Under the pieces are notes generated by a model, which did not search any database, had not been told where the DNA came from, and saw only the letters and a program-made list of their open reading frames with translations. Shown in pieces: positions 25,533 to 63,310 of a stretch of 64,000 nucleotides of DNA. The first letter of the stretch is position 1. The number at the start of each line of letters is the position of its first letter. Source of the stretch: Eledone cirrhosa (taxonomy: Eukaryota). Both the position numbers and the translations under genes were made by a program. Location of the stretch: positions 56,048,001-56,112,000 of the forward strand of contig OZ024742.1 in NCBI GenBank assembly GCA_964016885.1. Reading direction: 5' to 3'.

Positions 25533-27033
25533 TTACCTGAACTATTATTCCCGGTGTTACTATTAGGATTAGTATTGCAGTTTACATTACTACTGTAGGT
25601 ATTGCTGGCGTCACAAATATTATTGTCATCGCTATTGTATTTTCTTTCGTTTTGTTTATCTCCAGTGTTTTGGTTTAGTATCGTAGCAATATCTCTTTTA
25701 CTAATTCCGACACTTTTATCCCTGATAAAACAGTCACCATTGTCATGTCTTCCTGGTTCGTTAATTGTCCTACGCCAGTGGATTTTATCATTCTGTCTAT
25801 ATCGGTATTGTAACAATCTAGGTTGTAAATTGAGGGTTTATCGTTGTTCCGACATCCTCTGTTGATAATGTGAAAGATTATATTAGACTTATTACTAATG
25901 AGATTACTATGGTCATCACTACCAGTGTTATTATTATTTCTAGACTATTAGCATAATCATTATTGCTATTCGTATTCTTATTTTTATCGTCATAGCATCC
26001 GCTCCAGTCTTAATTGACCAATGTGTCTGTTTGTATGCTTGTATGTTCGGTGTGAACGCCCATGCTTAGCTTAGGTTCATTGTTAGCTTCAGCCCCAGAG
26101 CTTCTATTATTTGTATTAGCGTTTCCTGAGTCGGACTTGGCTCCCTTATAGTTTTGACGATTGAGGGCTCTACGCTTCGCATCTCGGTGCATAACATTAT
26201 CACTATCACCATGATTACTGCTACTGTTGTTAGTGCTACTACTACATCAAACCTCCTATGGTTATACCTGCTGGTATTGCGACAATAATTGATATTACTA
26301 CTGCGAAAGCTGCAGGAGTCGTGGTATTTATTCCTCCCGTTAAATTCATTACTAATGTGCTTATTCCAAGTTTTAGTCATCTCATCAGTATTATTGCAAT
26401 TACTGTCGTCCACTGGGTTAGATAATTTCGCAACTACTCATACACTTAGCCTTGTGGATAGTGTACGGTGCATCAGCGTATGACTTGTCAGTACTGTTAT
26501 GTGGTATGTGTTGGTTTTAGAACTAATATTGTTTACATTGACGTACTTACTATGCAGACTAATATGAACTGACTATATGTTGGAATTGTGATAGTTCCCC
26601 TGCTTTCCTAACTTATCATAGTTATTACCGTTATAGTCATGTACGTCTACATAGATTAGATTTCACTCTCCACACTCCATGATGGATTTAGAGATAGTAT
26701 ATCACCTAGGACTGCTTCGGTGTGTTGTTTCGTCGTTAATTTGATGTATTGAAACTTCGCAACGGTGCCTGCTCTGGTGAGAGCAGAATTGTTGTCTTCC
26801 GCATGTTGATTAAATTATCTTCATTCACGAATAGTGTAAATGCTCTGATGGAATAATTTTTTCGTACAGATTTTCCCCTGCATGTCATTATTCATACGTT
26901 TCATAGTCTTTCGATTCAAGTATCAAGTCCGTTGATATGTATATATATATATAAAAGCATGTGTTTGCCTATATATATAGTGAAAGAGTGAAGAATAACA
27001 TGCTCAACATTACAAAAAGGGTTTTATTTACAG

Positions 27034-27139
27034 TATTAATAATTGTTTCATTGATTAGGGTGTCTAAAGATTGCTAATCACTTGAATTTGTGTCACTCAA
27101 TCTTAAATACAATGTATGCCTAATCAAATCATCAGAATA
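27034..27139 (-). ncRNA. Type-I hammerhead ribozyme with long stem-II insertion
   Basis: tatt-CTGATGA-t-ttgattagg..(~57 nt)..cctaatcaa-t-GAAAC-aatt-ATT-aata; stem I 4 bp, stem II 9 bp; stem III has a C.A mismatch. Confidence 0.65.
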
Positions 27140-29090
27140 ACTGACAAAAATTGCATACGGCGTTTGTAATATACTAGGAGAATTCAAATAACATCAATAA
27201 TAAAGAATGAAAAAAGAGAGAAAGAAAAAGAAAAAGAAAAAATAATAAATAATAATAAATAAGTTAAAATGAAGATGATACAAAATAAGTAAAAAATATA
27301 TATGTGAAAAAAATGAACATAATATGATTGTTGAAAATAGTGGTGGTTGTGGTGGTTAAAGTTATAGTGGTGTGTAAGTATAAAGATGTGATGAGAGTAT
27401 AAATACTATTAATATGAAAATATTAAATATATACATATGTATTGGTTAAATCACAGAGGATTATAGTAGGAAGAAAGGATATAATCATAAATAATATAAA
27501 GATAAATTAATAATTTAGAAGTTAGGTGATAGGTGAAGAGAACATAAAATATAATGGAAGAGGTGAAATAGTTTTAGAGATAGAGAATGAGTTACCAACT
27601 ATAGACCTATCACATGTCTGTCCGTAATGTGGAAACTGTTGTCAAACATTGTGTCTGAGGAAATCTACCATCACCTCCACACAAACAACTTGTTACTGGA
27701 TGAACAGAAAGGATGCCGAAAGAAGTCCCGTGGTACAAAGGACCAGTTACTTATTGATAAGATGGTAATGAGGAATTGCAAGAGGAGACACACTGGTCTT
27801 GCCATGGGATGGATAGACTACAGAAAGGCATTTGACATGGTGCCTCATTCTTGGATCACCAAAAGCCTAGAGATCTTCTAGGTGGCAGCTAACATCAGAC
27901 AGTTGTTGAGCAAAAGTATGAAGTCCTAGAAAACAGAGTTAACATCAGCTGGAGAATCCTTGGGAGGCGTGAAGATCAAGAGAGGTATCTTCCAGGGAGA
28001 TAGTCTGTCCCCTCTGTTGTTTGTCCTTGCCCTGATGCCCCTGACCATTATACTGCGAAAAGTGAGAGCAGGATACAAGTTGGGAAAGGGAGAGCTTACC
28101 ATCAATCATATTTACAAGGAGGAGGCTAGCCCACTGTGCAGGATCTGTGGAGAGAGAGAGAGGAGACTGTGGCTCACATTGTATCCGAGTGTAAACACCT
28201 AGCCCAGACTCACTATAAAGGCTGGAGACATGATGTGATGGGCAGGGTGATCCACCGGCACCTATGCAAAGTAAACAATTTACCACATTCTGAGAAGTGG
28301 TATGAGCATAAGCCAGAGTCGGTGATAGAAAACGATCAGGTGAAGGTGCTGTGGGATTTTAGGATACAGATGGACAAGAAACTGGAACACAATAGACCTG
28401 ACATGGTGGTTTTGGACAACTTTTTTCTTTAAACAGCAAAGAAACAACAAATTCAAAAATCTCAATACACAGAGGAATATTCCAGGGAGATTCCTTATTC
28501 CCCCTCCTCTTCTCTATAACATTAATTTCTTGTTCTCATGAACTAAGGAATTCTACCTATGGCTACAAAATTAAAGAAAGTCTTTTCAGCCATCACTTCT
28601 ATATGGATGATATTGAGCTCTTCGCTTTTGTCAGAATAACTGACAAAAATTGCATACGGCGTTTGTAATATACTAGGAGAATTCAAATAACATCAATAAT
28701 AAAGAATGAAAAAAGAGAGAAAGAAAAAGAAAAAGAAAAAATAATAAATAATAATAAATAAGTTAAAATGAAGATGATACAAAATAAGTAAAAAATATAT
28801 ATGTGAAAAAAATGAACATAATATGATTGTTGAAAATAGTGGTGGTTGTGGTGGTTAAAGTTATAGTGGTGTGTAAGTATAAAGATGTGATGAGAGTATA
28901 AATACTATTAATATGAAAATATTAAATATATACATATGTATTGGTTAAATCACAGAGGGTTATAGTAGGAAGAAAGGATATAATCATAATTAATATAAAG
29001 ATAAATTAATAATTTAGAAGTTAGGTGATAGGTGAAGAGAACATAAAATATAATGGAAGAGGTGAAATAGTTTTAGAGATAGAGAATGAG
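27132..29090. repeat. 460-bp near-identical direct repeat (27132-27591 and 28631-29090)
   Basis: Both copies run tcagaataactgacaaaaattgc...gagatagagaatgag at a constant offset of 1499. Confidence 0.95.
27592..28630 (+). mobile_element. R4/Dong-clade non-LTR fragments (RT, CCHC knuckle, RLE start; internally deleted), followed by a second diverged RT piece
   Basis: [79 protein letters not shown]; 28470-28625 again resembles RGIFQGD..LSP..YMDD. Confidence 0.85.
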
Positions 29091-60815: not shown

Positions 60816-61834
60816 ACACACGCCTTGGTATTATACCAATACTATATATCATTTCACACCTTTTATTATTAAGGTTTTTGATGTTCTATTGAGAGAATCG
60901 GTATTACTGAAAATATCGAATAATGTACGCCATTTCACCAGTTTCACAAAAATAATTACTGGTCTACCCACACACACACATTCTCACACACACGTGTATG
61001 CGCACACACGCACATATATACACACACACATACACACGCGTACATTAACATACAAAGAGACATACACACACACACACACACACACGCACACACACGCACA
61101 CACACACACACACACACACACACATACACACACACACACACACACACACACACACACACACACACACACACACACACACTTGTCTTAATAGCCATTTGAA
61201 CTGTCAACAGGCTGCGGTTCGCACATACATCCCTGCTGACCATTATCACAACAACGAACCTCTTTACTACTACTACTACACACACACACACACACACACA
61301 CACATATTTGTTTTGAAAGACTTATTTTTCAGTGACTTTTCAATCAGCCGGCACAAATCTACATTTGGCGCAAAATCAATTTTTAACATTCACATGACCT
61401 CTACCGACCAATCAAAATTGTTTTGACCACAAGAATTTTTGCAACACGAATTGGCGCAAAACTTATTTTAATACCGCTGGAGCCACTTTTTTAACATAAA
61501 AACAGGTAGAATTTCCAAAACTAATCAGATTAGAGCAAACATCATGGACACTCTATCTCAAAATTATTTTTGAAAAGCATTAGAAATGCGCAACCGGTAA
61601 AACTTAAAACCAAAACTGAATACTAACCAATACTATTACTAATTCTCACTTATTCCTAATTAAACTATTTTTCACTGTGAACAATTTGTCAGCATTTTCT
61701 TTTTCGTTTACCAATATATATATATAGATATATATATATATATATATATATATATATATATATATATATATATATATATAACCAATATATATATATATAT
61801 ATATATATATATATATATATATATATATATATAT

Positions 61835-63310
61835 ATAACCAACTATCTGGTTGTGGAACTAACCAACCAACCAGAAATTTATAAATTTATAAATTTATAA
61901 ATTTATTATAATAAATTGAAGTGAAAGCAACTGGTGCGTGTGTTTCTTATTGGCAACATGACCCTCCCAAAGTATAACAATATATATATATATATATATA
62001 TATATATATTGTTATACTTTGGGAGGGTCATGTTGCCAATAAGAAACACACGCACCAGTTGCTTTCACTTCAATTTATTATAATAAATTTATAAATTTAT
62101 AAATTTATAAATTTCTGGTTGGTTGGTTAGTTCCACAACCAGATAGTTGTTTATATATTGTCATGGTTCTTACGTCACACACTCTGTGACCTTTTCAGTG
62201 ACTGGGGATTCTTTTCTTTGTTTTTGTGCCTCTCCTTTGTTCTGTCCTACGCCATTTTGTTTGTGTGTGTGTTGTGGGCTCAGTCTGCGCATGCGCCACA
62301 TCCGGGTGTCTGTGTGTGTTTATGTTCATTTATTTATTTGTTTATATAAATGTTACTGGTTGGTTGTTTGTTCTATGTGTGTGTGTGTTTTCATTTTGTC
62401 CTTAATTGTAAGTTGTGATATTGCTGTTCCACTCATATTTTCTATTTAATTTTGGTTGTAATTATTTTATGTTTATTGCCTCCGTGATTTGTCTAAACAT
62501 TGCGTCTTTTCTGTGTGTAGATTCTATTTTTATTTCTATGTTCTCTAATTTACCCTTGTGTTCTATTTTAGCATGTTGGTAAAGTACAGATGATTCTTTA
62601 CTATCTTGAAGGTCTCGCCAGTGTTCATTTATCCATTCCCCTACACTACGAGCTGTCTCACCTATGTACAATATATTTTGTCTCTACATTGTCCTTCAGT
62701 ACATCTTATGCTATACACTACATTTCTAGTTTTACAGTTAATATGGGGGCTTATTTTACAGGTTATACATTTCTTATCTATACATGATAACCTGTAACAT
62801 AAAAGAATTACAACCAAAATTAAATAGAAAATATGAGTGGAACAGCAACATCACAACTTACAATTAAGGACAAAATGAAAACACACACACACATAGAACA
62901 AACAACCAACCAGTAACATGTAAATAAACAAATAAATAAATGAACATAAACACACACAGACACCCGGATGTGGCGCATGCGCAGACTGAGCACACAACAC
63001 ACACACAGAAACAAAATGGCGTAGGACAGAACAAAGGAGAGACACAAAAACAAAGAAAATAATCCCCAGTCACTGAAGAGGTCACAGAGTGTGTGACGTA
63101 AGAACTATGACAATATATAAACAACTATCTGGTTGTGGAACCAACCAACCAGAAATTTATAAATTTATAAATTTATTATAATAAATTGAAGTGAAAGCAA
63201 CTGGTGCGTGTGTTTCATATTGGCAACATGACCCTCCCAAAGTATAACAATATCGGTTTCAACACACGATTTCAGATAAAGAATCTTGCTAAATAAATTC
63301 AGAAACGAAA
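61835..63310 (-). mobile_element. Neptune-like PLE remnant (GIY-YIG 62462-62790) with inverted pLTRs (62010-62462 / 62808-63250) and an extra mirrored pLTR end (61838-61980)
   Basis: YIGETARSVGEWINEHWRDL..ITEAINIK; pLTR end atgaccctcccaaagtataacaa shared with the 32.2-34.4 kb element. Confidence 0.9.
63069..63111 (+). ncRNA. Minimal hammerhead ribozyme, GUAA variant (mutated antisense copy 62160-62202)
   Basis: gtca-CTGAAGA-g-gtcaca gagtg tgtgac-GTAA-g aa-CTA-tgac; perfect stems I and II. Confidence 0.7.

What the first reader, a model, noticed from the sequence alone, without database searches (positions are those of the whole stretch)
26980..63310. Dense cluster of ribozyme-bearing fold-back Penelope-like elements with a repertoire of non-canonical hammerheads
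Seen: at least nine PLE-derived insertions from several families in 36 kb, nearly all abutting (TA)n. Six have an inverted pLTR on each side, and eight distinct type-I HHR motifs occur here (a ninth at 9.0 kb). Most depart from the CUGANGA/GAAA minimal form, yet stems I-III largely stay paired. Established: PLE pLTRs carry minimal HHRs, and inverted 5' pLTRs are known in PLEs. Inference: this lineage has a radiation of HHR core variants plus non-autonomous fold-back derivatives mobilised by Neptune- and Naiad-type RT/GIY-YIG proteins. That would be a largely undescribed ribozyme-retroelement system that standard HHR descriptors would miss.
Basis: partly seen in the sequence, partly recalled or inferred. 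Interest (0 to 1): 0.85.

Follow-up and report, generated by a model that had tools for sequence, protein, structure and literature searches.

The report
Penelope elements carrying variant hammerhead ribozymes
This stretch is a typical sample of a genome full of Penelope-like jumping genes whose tails carry hammerhead-shaped, predicted self-cutting RNAs; most have the usual core, but a few whole families carry a fixed altered core whose cutting activity is untested.

Summary
In 26,980-63,310 I count 11 Penelope-like (PLE) insertions, seven of them fold-backs, and ten hammerhead (HHR) motif types. It is not a special cluster: 60 evenly spaced 10-kb samples gave 88 HHR-like hits against 3 in reversed controls, and the range's 9 hits compare with 5.3 expected (P about 0.1). 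The 'Naiad' ORFs have Hydra-clade features, and TA targeting, inverted 5' copies and this HHR shape are already published (Craig 2021). Several odd copies are decay from canonical families. Three core changes are family-level: U3-A8 (Neptune element at 44.1 kb; Hydra element at 9.0 kb), U4C (families at 27.1 and 50.7/54.3 kb; 9,829 pattern matches genome-wide) and U4A (one Hydra family, 17,750 matches; only its tail lies in the window). Positions 3 and 8 covary genome-wide: C-G 13,720, U-A 24,829, mismatches 381 and 335. U3-A8 and U4C are in print; I found no report of U4A in two searches. Extrapolated load is about 4x10^5 motifs. No cleavage or RNA data were obtainable.

The parts
8900..9940 (-). 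3' end of a Hydra-clade PLE (outside the finding's range); the 5' limit given is approximate
   Evidence: family copies carry a Hydra-type EN and RT upstream
8995..9086 (-). HHR H0: U3-A8 core, long helix II, 6-bp helix III with palindromic loop, GUC site; family-level variant
   Evidence: 5,289 flank-pattern matches, first 100 listed: 77 U3-A8, 22 C3.A8, 1 G3.A8, 0 C3-G8
26980..29290 (-). E1: pLTR of a Hydra PLE family, interrupted by a fragment of another non-LTR element (about 27592-28630) between 460-bp direct repeats
   Evidence: Hydra ORF linked in 3 of 36 family copies
27034..27139 (-). HHR H1: this copy U4, family majority U4C; 79-nt helix II insert
   Evidence: 157 pattern matches, first 100: 77 C4, 22 U4, 1 A4
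32164..34435 (+). E2: fold-back PLE with broken RT and C-terminal GIY-YIG (short CX4CxxC linker, Nematis-like by eye; clade not settled)
34200..34241 (+). HHR H2, canonical core; inverted copy about 32394-32434 (-)
   Evidence: CUGANGA in 17 of 17 family rows
38314..38470 (-). 3' tail fragment of the U4A Hydra family; begins after the HHR core
   Evidence: 38400-38470 by BLAST, the rest by eye against the alignment; family census; family ORF
38480..39350 (.). E3: old fold-back repeat (arms 76% alike); no HHR or PLE ORF found; not counted as PLE
40294..41330 (-). E4: ORF-less partial tandem (about 700-bp unit)
   Evidence: no linked ORF in 19 copies
40589..40671 (-). HHR H4: canonical core, long helix II, helix III decayed in this copy
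   Evidence: CUGAUGA in 17 of 23 family rows
41333..43520 (.). E5: fold-back with 472-bp arms (94%), no ORF found
   Evidence: no linked ORF in 34 copies
43402..43446 (+). HHR H5, canonical core; inverted copy 41383-41427 (-) has copy-specific G17
   Evidence: CUGANGA in 31 of 33 family rows
43900..46668 (-). E6: Neptune-type PLE remnant (GIY-YIG 45492-45881) with inverted 5' arm
44125..44167 (-). HHR H6: U3-A8 core, G10.1-C11.1, palindromic helix III; family-level variant
   Evidence: UUGANAA in 26 of 32 family rows fetched with a query that excluded the HHR, C3-G8 in 0
46700..48180 (-). E7a: truncated Hydra RT-EN fragment without its own pLTR
48228..48600 (.). E7b: 334-bp palindrome of two head-to-head pLTR ends plus tail; canonical HHR H7 at 48478-48523 (+) and 48266-48311 (-)
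48778..50250 (.). E8: ORF-less retrozyme-like family (about 420-bp tandem unit), inverted copies; HHR H8 at 49944-49986 (+) and 48888-48930 (-), both decayed from a canonical family core
   Evidence: CUGANGA in 38 of 41 rows
50647..54426 (+). E9: Hydra PLE with 840-bp inverted arms (96%)
50681..50727 (-). HHR H9: U4C core, purine mismatch at helix II base; second copy 54337-54392 (+) has a 9-nt duplication in helix III; family-level variant
   Evidence: C4 in 33 of 33 rows anchored on the flank alone, 2 of them the window's own; exact 22-mers C4 360 vs U4 9
54550..59802 (+). E10: Hydra PLE partial tandem with direct pLTRs (56609-57054, 59369-59802); RT 57188-59053 has RWK and DKT
56889..57004 (+). 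HHR H10 (second copy 59637-59752): canonical core, long helix II, only 1 bp of helix I
   Evidence: 34 near-identical rows, CUGAAGA in all; top-hit bias
61842..63310 (.). E11: fold-back relative of E2; HHR H11 at 63069-63111 (+) and 62160-62202 (-) with copy-specific GUA
   Evidence: GAAA in 41 of 43 non-window rows, GUA in 0

Best explanation
The region is an ordinary pile of 5'-truncated Penelope-like retrotransposon copies (Hydra, Neptune and a Nematis-like clade) beside TA repeats, and their 3' repeats carry type I hammerhead motifs that likely cut the element's RNA slowly, mostly as dimers. SHOWN: element anatomy, clade motifs, HHR folds, family-level cores and the genome-wide 3-8 covariation. 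FROM LITERATURE: the RT/GIY-YIG protein targets (TA)n and often leaves an inverted truncated copy at the 5' end (Craig 2021), and short palindromic helix III motifs work as dimers (Cervera 2014). INFERRED: the fold-backs are by-products of insertion. A read-through RNA would pair each HHR with its own antisense copy, so cleavage would matter in tandem master copies, not in fold-backs. Also inferred: selection on master elements keeps the 3-8 pair (C-G or U-A) and the other core bases but tolerates U, C or A at position 4, which suggests that slow cleavage is enough. ORF-less families (E4, E5, E7b, E8) would be moved in trans by these proteins.
For: Hydra diagnostics are present. Published Hydra HHRs have the same helix II-base mismatch and short palindromic helix III. 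One pattern family gives C3-G8 13,720 (reversed control 263), U3-A8 24,829 (3,164), C3.A8 381 (209) and U3.G8 335 (299). In 40 clusters no majority change occurs at G5, A6, A9, G12, A13, A14, 15.1 or 16.1. N7 varies while U4, G5, A6, A8 and A9 hold in nearly all of the first 100 H0 copies. Helix III segments form no hairpin alone but pair as homodimers for H6-H10 (-1.6 to -8.3 kcal/mol). In the C4 clade 94% of cells pair, against 23-42% when slid. Inverted upstream copies are common in ORF-bearing families, e.g. E9 36 of 87 and E11 26 of 65.
Against: Counts are copies, not independent events; one family makes up about 70 of the first 100 U3-A8 rows. A C3.A8 mismatch subfamily amplified in the H0 family (22 of 100). 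H10 has only 1 bp of helix I in a young family, and H2/H11 helix III does not pair as a homodimer (+1.4). Stem covariation in the C4 clade is thin: 2 pairs with a double change, each in one sequence. Minimum-energy folds seldom give the three-way junction and z-scores are weak (-2.4 to +1.0). In vitro, HHR mutants did not block insertion by a lizard PLE, and no RNA ends were seen at its site (PMC11167929). The scanner allows one deviation only, so doubly changed cores were not surveyed.
Confidence: 0.68

Rival explanations
1. The variant motifs, U4C and U4A above all, are dead or nearly dead ribozymes that hitchhiked in successful master elements; the HHR is dispensable for transposition.
For: U4C 'considerably decreases activity in vitro' (PMC3088659). 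HHR cleavage was not needed for insertion in vitro (PMC11167929). Naiads proliferate without canonical HHRs. The U4A family has 17,750 matches, and a C3.A8 subfamily amplified.
Against: The rest of the core and all three stems stay intact in C4 and A4 families. C4 needs at least 3 changes on the EN tree of 24 rows (a rough tree with long branches), while no other core position shows family-level change. Mismatched 3-8 states are near background genome-wide.
Confidence: 0.25
2. One reading: a distinct, undescribed system of non-autonomous fold-back elements with non-canonical ribozymes, mobilised by Neptune and Naiad proteins and clustered at this locus.
For: Fold-backs and variant cores are real. 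Four families show no linked ORF of their own within about 1.5 kb: E4 0 of 19, E5 0 of 34, E7b 0 of 6, E8 1 of 56. Rfam finds none of the motifs.
Against: Density is typical of the genome. No Naiad is seen; the ORFs are Hydra-type. Inverted 5' copies are a described PLE insertion pattern, and fold-backs of ORF-bearing families vary in length. Non-autonomous PLE derivatives are published (bioRxiv 10.64898/2026.07.22.740005). Seven of ten in-range types are canonical at family level.
Confidence: 0.07

Closest known systems
Hydra-clade PLEs, including Hydra-1_Obim of Octopus bimaculoides (Craig et al. 2021, PMC8557442)
   Same: C-terminal GIY-YIG, RWK, DKT, CxCX5C linker, (TA)n targets, partial tandems and inverted 5' copies; HHR with a mismatch at the helix II base and a short palindromic helix III (File S2)
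   Different: All Hydra HHR rows in File S2 read CUGA. Here Hydra families carry U4C, U4A or U3-A8, and some have 50-95-nt helix II inserts that the usual descriptors would not span.
Minimal HHRs of metazoan PLEs, including the U3-A8 variant of Schistosoma mansoni Cercyon elements (Cervera and De la Pena 2014, PMC4209133)
   Same: Type I motif in pLTRs, short palindromic helix III, many families per genome, opposite-strand pairs 100-700 bp apart, U3-A8 covariation (about 1,300 hits there)
   Different: Scale: at least 24,829 U3-A8 pattern matches in several families of two clades. H0 and H4 have 5-6-bp helix III and may work as monomers.
Natural HHR core variants (Perreault et al. 2011, PMC3088659) and CYGANGA descriptors (PMC13481778)
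   Same: U3-A8, viroid U4C and a U10.1-U11.1 mismatch are listed; one published descriptor already allows C at position 4
   Different: Those variants are rare single cases. Here they are fixed in families of 10^2-10^4 copies; U4A was not found in my searches.
Non-LTR retrozymes (PMC7229834; bioRxiv 10.64898/2026.07.22.740005)
   Same: ORF-less tandem units of a few hundred bp with a type I HHR (E8; also 466-469-bp arrays)
   Different: Circular RNA expression is untested here; E8's HHR is Hydra-PLE-shaped rather than loop-loop canonical.
Small HHR variants of PLEs that cleave as dimers (Lunse, Weinberg, Breaker, RNA Biol 14:1499)
   Same: By its title, the same class of motif
   Different: Text not held; only the title was seen in reference lists, so it may already list these core variants.

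Membership tests
Hydra-clade PLE (E7a, E9, E10, H0 family, U4A family) | GIY-YIG C-terminal to RT | tested here: met
   Pfam GIY-YIG E=0.0006 and 0.007, below the gathering cut-off
Hydra-clade PLE | RWK motif and DKT in place of DKG | tested here: met
   E10 ORF has both; DKT in E9, H0 and U4A family copies, with RWR/RWC instead of RWK in the last two
Hydra-clade PLE | CxCX5C linker | tested here: met
   compared by eye with Fig. S7 rows
Hydra-clade PLE | RT phylogeny groups with reference Hydra elements | not tested
Hydra-clade PLE | (TA)n insertion preference | tested here: met
   TA run within 400 nt downstream in 386 of 414 family copies across all 11 families; no matched background computed, and TA runs are frequent
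Naiad PLE | N-terminal GIY-YIG, CxC domain and DKA | tested here: not met
   all ENs with enough context lie after the RT; DKT, not DKA
Neptune PLE (E6) | C-terminal EN with long CX2-5CxxC linker and CCHH | tested here: met
   (RT thumb upstream in L138), matched by eye to Neptune rows
Neptune or Nematis PLE (E2, E11) | linker type and RT4 motif | tested here: inconclusive
   short Nematis-like linker, but RT4 reads GAAIG, unlike the reference rows
Type I minimal HHR of PLEs | core CUGANGA / GAAA / UH | tested here: met
   7 of 10 in-range types at family level; H6 is U3-A8, H1 and H9 are U4C
Type I minimal HHR of PLEs | helices I-III, short palindromic helix III | tested here: met
   exceptions: H10 helix I 1 bp, H2 family helix I 2 bp, H2/H11 helix III not self-pairing
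Type I minimal HHR of PLEs | located in the pLTR, sense to the ORF | tested here: met
   for E0, E1, E2, E6, E9, E10, E11; no ORF link for E4, E5, E7b
Type I minimal HHR of PLEs | self-cleavage at NUH | not testable with these tools
   needs a bench assay; no RNA holder listed
Non-LTR retrozyme (E8, E4) | ORF-less tandem units each with an HHR | tested here: met
   E8 about 420-bp tandems; E4 about 700-bp partial tandems
Non-LTR retrozyme (E8, E4) | expressed as circular RNA | not testable with these tools
   no RNA holder listed

The most novel reading that the evidence does not exclude
This genome holds about 4x10^5 PLE-derived hammerhead motifs (bootstrap 3.1-5.4x10^5), several times the largest single-genome count I saw in print (126,247, axolotl). 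Its families form a natural mutational scan: the 3-8 pair has flipped to U-A repeatedly and is enforced, while position 4 accepts C and A, including an unreported active U4A core fixed in an autonomous family of at least 17,750 copies. PLE hammerheads would thus be selected, and tuned to cut slowly.
Probability: 0.35. Interest if true: 0.65.

Novelty: new variant of a known kind. Interest (0 to 1): 0.45.

Why it matters
Whether PLE hammerheads do anything is open: one view is that they process the element's RNA, another that they merely ride along (PMC8557442, PMC11167929). A genome with dozens of young families in four core states, and a 3-8 covariation in which matched states outnumber mismatched ones about 50 to 1, gives sequence evidence for selection on the active fold and ready-made pairs for cleavage and transposition assays. 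It also shows that CUGANGA-only searches undercount these motifs: 21 of 88 sampled hits were U3-A8, C4 or A4. The locus itself is not special.

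Tried and rejected
Rfam at E<=1 gave only microsatellite-driven miRNA/snoRNA matches and no hammerhead. My first scanners missed the 9.1 bulge and long helix II and were replaced. The purine-rich hairpin at 44766/46141 was rejected as an HHR: its family reads UUGGAGA, and the element's real HHR is at 44125-44167. E3 was rejected as a PLE for lack of HHR or ORF. 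Top-hit family majorities proved biased toward the query: one search suggested U4 for H1, while the neutral pattern showed C4 in 77 of 100. The H5 and H10 majorities come from such top hits. One search used a misregistered structure string; one search is the valid count. One search used a wrong spacer length and returned 0, so there is no genome-wide count for H6 alone. The A4/G4 control pattern (3,295 matches, reversed 455) mixes a satellite, non-HHR repeats and a small A4 subfamily, so it is not a clean background. Lunse et al. is not held, and the supplements of Cervera 2014 and Perreault 2011 were not read; they may bear on whether U4C/U4A PLE variants or cephalopod HHRs are already reported. 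Two look-ups of earlier findings returned nothing.

Full report
Setting. The window is G000:C3:56048001-56112000 in a 3.0-Gb animal genome. An abundant SINE here looks octopus-type to me; that label is recalled, not tested. Masked self-BLAST, ORF listing and reading the sequence give 11 PLE-derived insertions in 26,980-63,310. They are E1, E2, E4, E5, E6, E7a, E7b, E8, E9, E10 and E11. There is also a tail fragment at 38.3-38.5 kb and one fold-back (E3) that I could not tie to PLEs. Seven of the 11 have inverted arms.

Clades. The ORFs at 46.7-48.2, 51.5-52.9 and 54.5-59.4 kb place the GIY-YIG after the RT. The most complete one has RWK, DKT and CxCX5C. Craig et al. 2021 (PMC8557442; I read passages, section 11 and supplement parts 1, 2 and 58) give exactly these as Hydra diagnostics. 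They report (TA)n targeting and inverted 5'-truncated copies, and list an octopus member, Hydra-1_Obim. Naiads have an N-terminal EN and DKA, and I saw neither. E6 has a Neptune-type linker. E2 and E11 have a short Nematis-like linker and a divergent RT4, so their clade is unsettled. No tree with reference proteins was built.

HHRs are real. Rfam found none. My final scanner allows one core deviation and helix II up to 100 nt. It gives 14 window hits at score >=11 against 4 reversed, and 10 against 0 at >=17. With family alignments there are ten motif types in range and one at 9.0 kb (coordinates). Their general shape is a mismatch or bulge at the base of helix II and a 2-4-bp palindromic helix III. 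That is the shape tabulated as canonical for Hydra elements and described for metazoan PLEs by Cervera and De la Pena 2014 (PMC4209133; parts 1-2 of 4 read).

Canonical at family level: H11 (GAAA in 41 of 43 non-window rows, GUA in none), H2 (17 of 17), H4 (17 of 23), H5 (31 of 33), H8 (38 of 41), H10 (34 of 34, top hits) and H7 (6 of 6). The oddities of the window copies of H5, H8 and H11 are therefore decay. Variant at family level: H9 is U4C (33 of 33 rows anchored only on the flank; exact 22-mers 360 C4 vs 9 U4). H1 is U4C in 77 of the first 100 of 157 matches, although the window copy is U4. H6 is U3-A8 (26 of 32 rows, none C3-G8). H0 is U3-A8 (first 100 of 5,289: 77 U3-A8, 22 C3.A8, 1 G3.A8).

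Genome-wide census, by exact patterns with reversed controls. Hydra-type helix III pattern: U4 18,633 (174), C4 9,829 (169), A/G4 3,295 (455, mixed content). Position 3/8 pattern: C-G 13,720 (263), U-A 24,829 (3,164), C.A 381 (209), U.G 335 (299). A separate family has 17,750 matches, all of the first 100 with A4. It ends at TA runs with an optional tail and carries Hydra ORFs with DKT and CxCX5C. Clustering 738 unique hits from all fetched loci gave 40 clusters of three or more (73 hits lay in smaller ones): 26 canonical, 8 U3-A8, 4 U4C, 1 U4A and 1 artefact, with no majority change at other core positions (enriched for variants by how loci were fetched). On a rough tree of 24 HHR-linked Hydra ENs, C4 needs at least 3 changes. 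In 19 distinct sequences of the main C4 clade, 94% of stem cells pair, but double changes are few. All these counts are copies, not independent events.

Is it a cluster? In 60 evenly spaced 10-kb stretches the scanner found 88 hits against 3 reversed: 52 canonical, 14 U3-A8, 4 A4, 3 C4 and 15 other. The finding's range has 9, with 5.3 expected (P=0.09-0.12). Hydra RT loci were more frequent in the window (4 per 64 kb vs 10 per 600 kb) with window-derived queries. So any enrichment is modest. Extrapolation gives about 424,000 motifs (bootstrap 315,000-539,000). The axolotl count in PMC7229834 is 126,247 (passages), but it used a different, stricter descriptor.

How it likely works. Known: PLE proteins insert at (TA)n and leave tandem or inverted truncated copies and a tail. 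Shown: an inverted upstream copy occurs in 12 of 36 E1, 12 of 29 E6, 36 of 87 E9, 10 of 33 E10, 26 of 65 E11 and 18 of 38 E0 copies, all ORF-linked families. The 334-nt palindrome folds into one duplex that buries its HHR. Inferred: fold-backs are dead-end products, and the ribozyme acts in tandem masters, as dimers where helix III is a short palindrome and perhaps as monomers for H0 and H4. The strict 3-8 covariation argues for selection on the active fold. Freedom at position 4 argues that slow cleavage suffices, or that these cores are dead (rival, 0.25). Frangieh et al. (PMC11167929; passages) found HHR cleavage dispensable for insertion in vitro. E4, E5, E7b and E8 show almost no linked ORF within about 1.5 kb and resemble non-autonomous PLE derivatives (bioRxiv 10.64898/2026.07.22.740005; parts 1-2 of 5); the short flanks limit this.

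What is known and what is not. U3-A8 is in print for PLEs and elsewhere, as are viroid U4C and the U10.1-U11.1 mismatch (PMC3088659; passages and section 8). A CYGANGA descriptor is used in PMC13481778 (passages). Searches for 'U4C', 'U4A', CAGANGA/CAGAUGA/CCGANGA/CCGAUGA and 'octopus' with 'hammerhead ribozyme' listed no report of a U4A natural core or of a cephalopod HHR census. An Octopus vulgaris repeat annotation has no occurrence of 'ribozyme' (PMC13282606; passages). The library lacks most subscription papers and Lunse et al. (title only, from reference lists in PMC6765202 and PMC6466107; passages), so absence from print is not established.

Verdict. The features are real and the element kinds are known. 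The locus is ordinary, the Naiad label is wrong, and several variants are decay. The genome-scale picture is the part worth following: recurrent fixed core variants, enforced 3-8 pairing, a U4A family and a very large HHR load. Novelty: new variant of a known kind. Interest 0.45.

Noticed in passing
G000-wide; L440-L459; tail at window 38314-38470: Autonomous Hydra PLE family with a fixed U4A hammerhead core, 17,750 exact pattern matches.
   Followed up: partly
window 8995-9086 family; L301, L222: A C3.A8 mismatch subfamily (22 of first 100) beside the U3-A8 majority, possibly an amplified intermediate of the compensatory switch.
   Followed up: partly
L412-L438: The dominant U3-A8 family (about 70 of first 100 rows) occurs mostly as very short fold-backs; one copy has a Neptune-like EN fragment upstream, linkage not confirmed.
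   Followed up: partly
G000:C1:5738327-5752443 and 14044536-14051131: Long tandem arrays with a 466-469-bp period, each unit with a canonical HHR: retrozyme-like. A 316-bp U3-A8 array lies at C1:6519947-6521556.
   Followed up: no
L315-L321: Small Hydra-linked family in which position 4 is C in some copies and A in others.
   Followed up: partly
window 56889-57004 and 59637-59752: Young family (99% identical copies) whose HHR has only 1 bp of helix I; splicing or a distant strand might supply it.
   Followed up: no
window 27592-28630: Broken non-LTR fragment (RT plus REL-like C-terminal motifs; R4/Dong label recalled) inside E1 between 460-bp direct repeats.
   Followed up: no
window 35376-38095: AP-endonuclease plus RT non-LTR element, RTE-like, with one frameshift; further L1/Tx1-like pieces at 31-1750, 11263-13404 and 23936-25097 (labels recalled).
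   Followed up: no
window 15983-16406, 20612-20724, 21685-21796, 22771-22966, 25346-25535, 39926-40110, 41794-42115: Many copies of a roughly 190-bp SINE, recalled as octopus-type.
   Followed up: no
window 29288-29430 and 50500-50645: Tail of a further repeat family next to TA runs, also present in 3 of 60 random stretches; unclassified.
   Followed up: no
window about 29585-29655: Short unique segment bounded by CAG and GTAAG, possibly a host-gene exon (seen).
   Followed up: no
G000:C1:176749905-176800836: Tandem array with a period of about 1,887 bp that inflates the A4/G4 control pattern.
   Followed up: no
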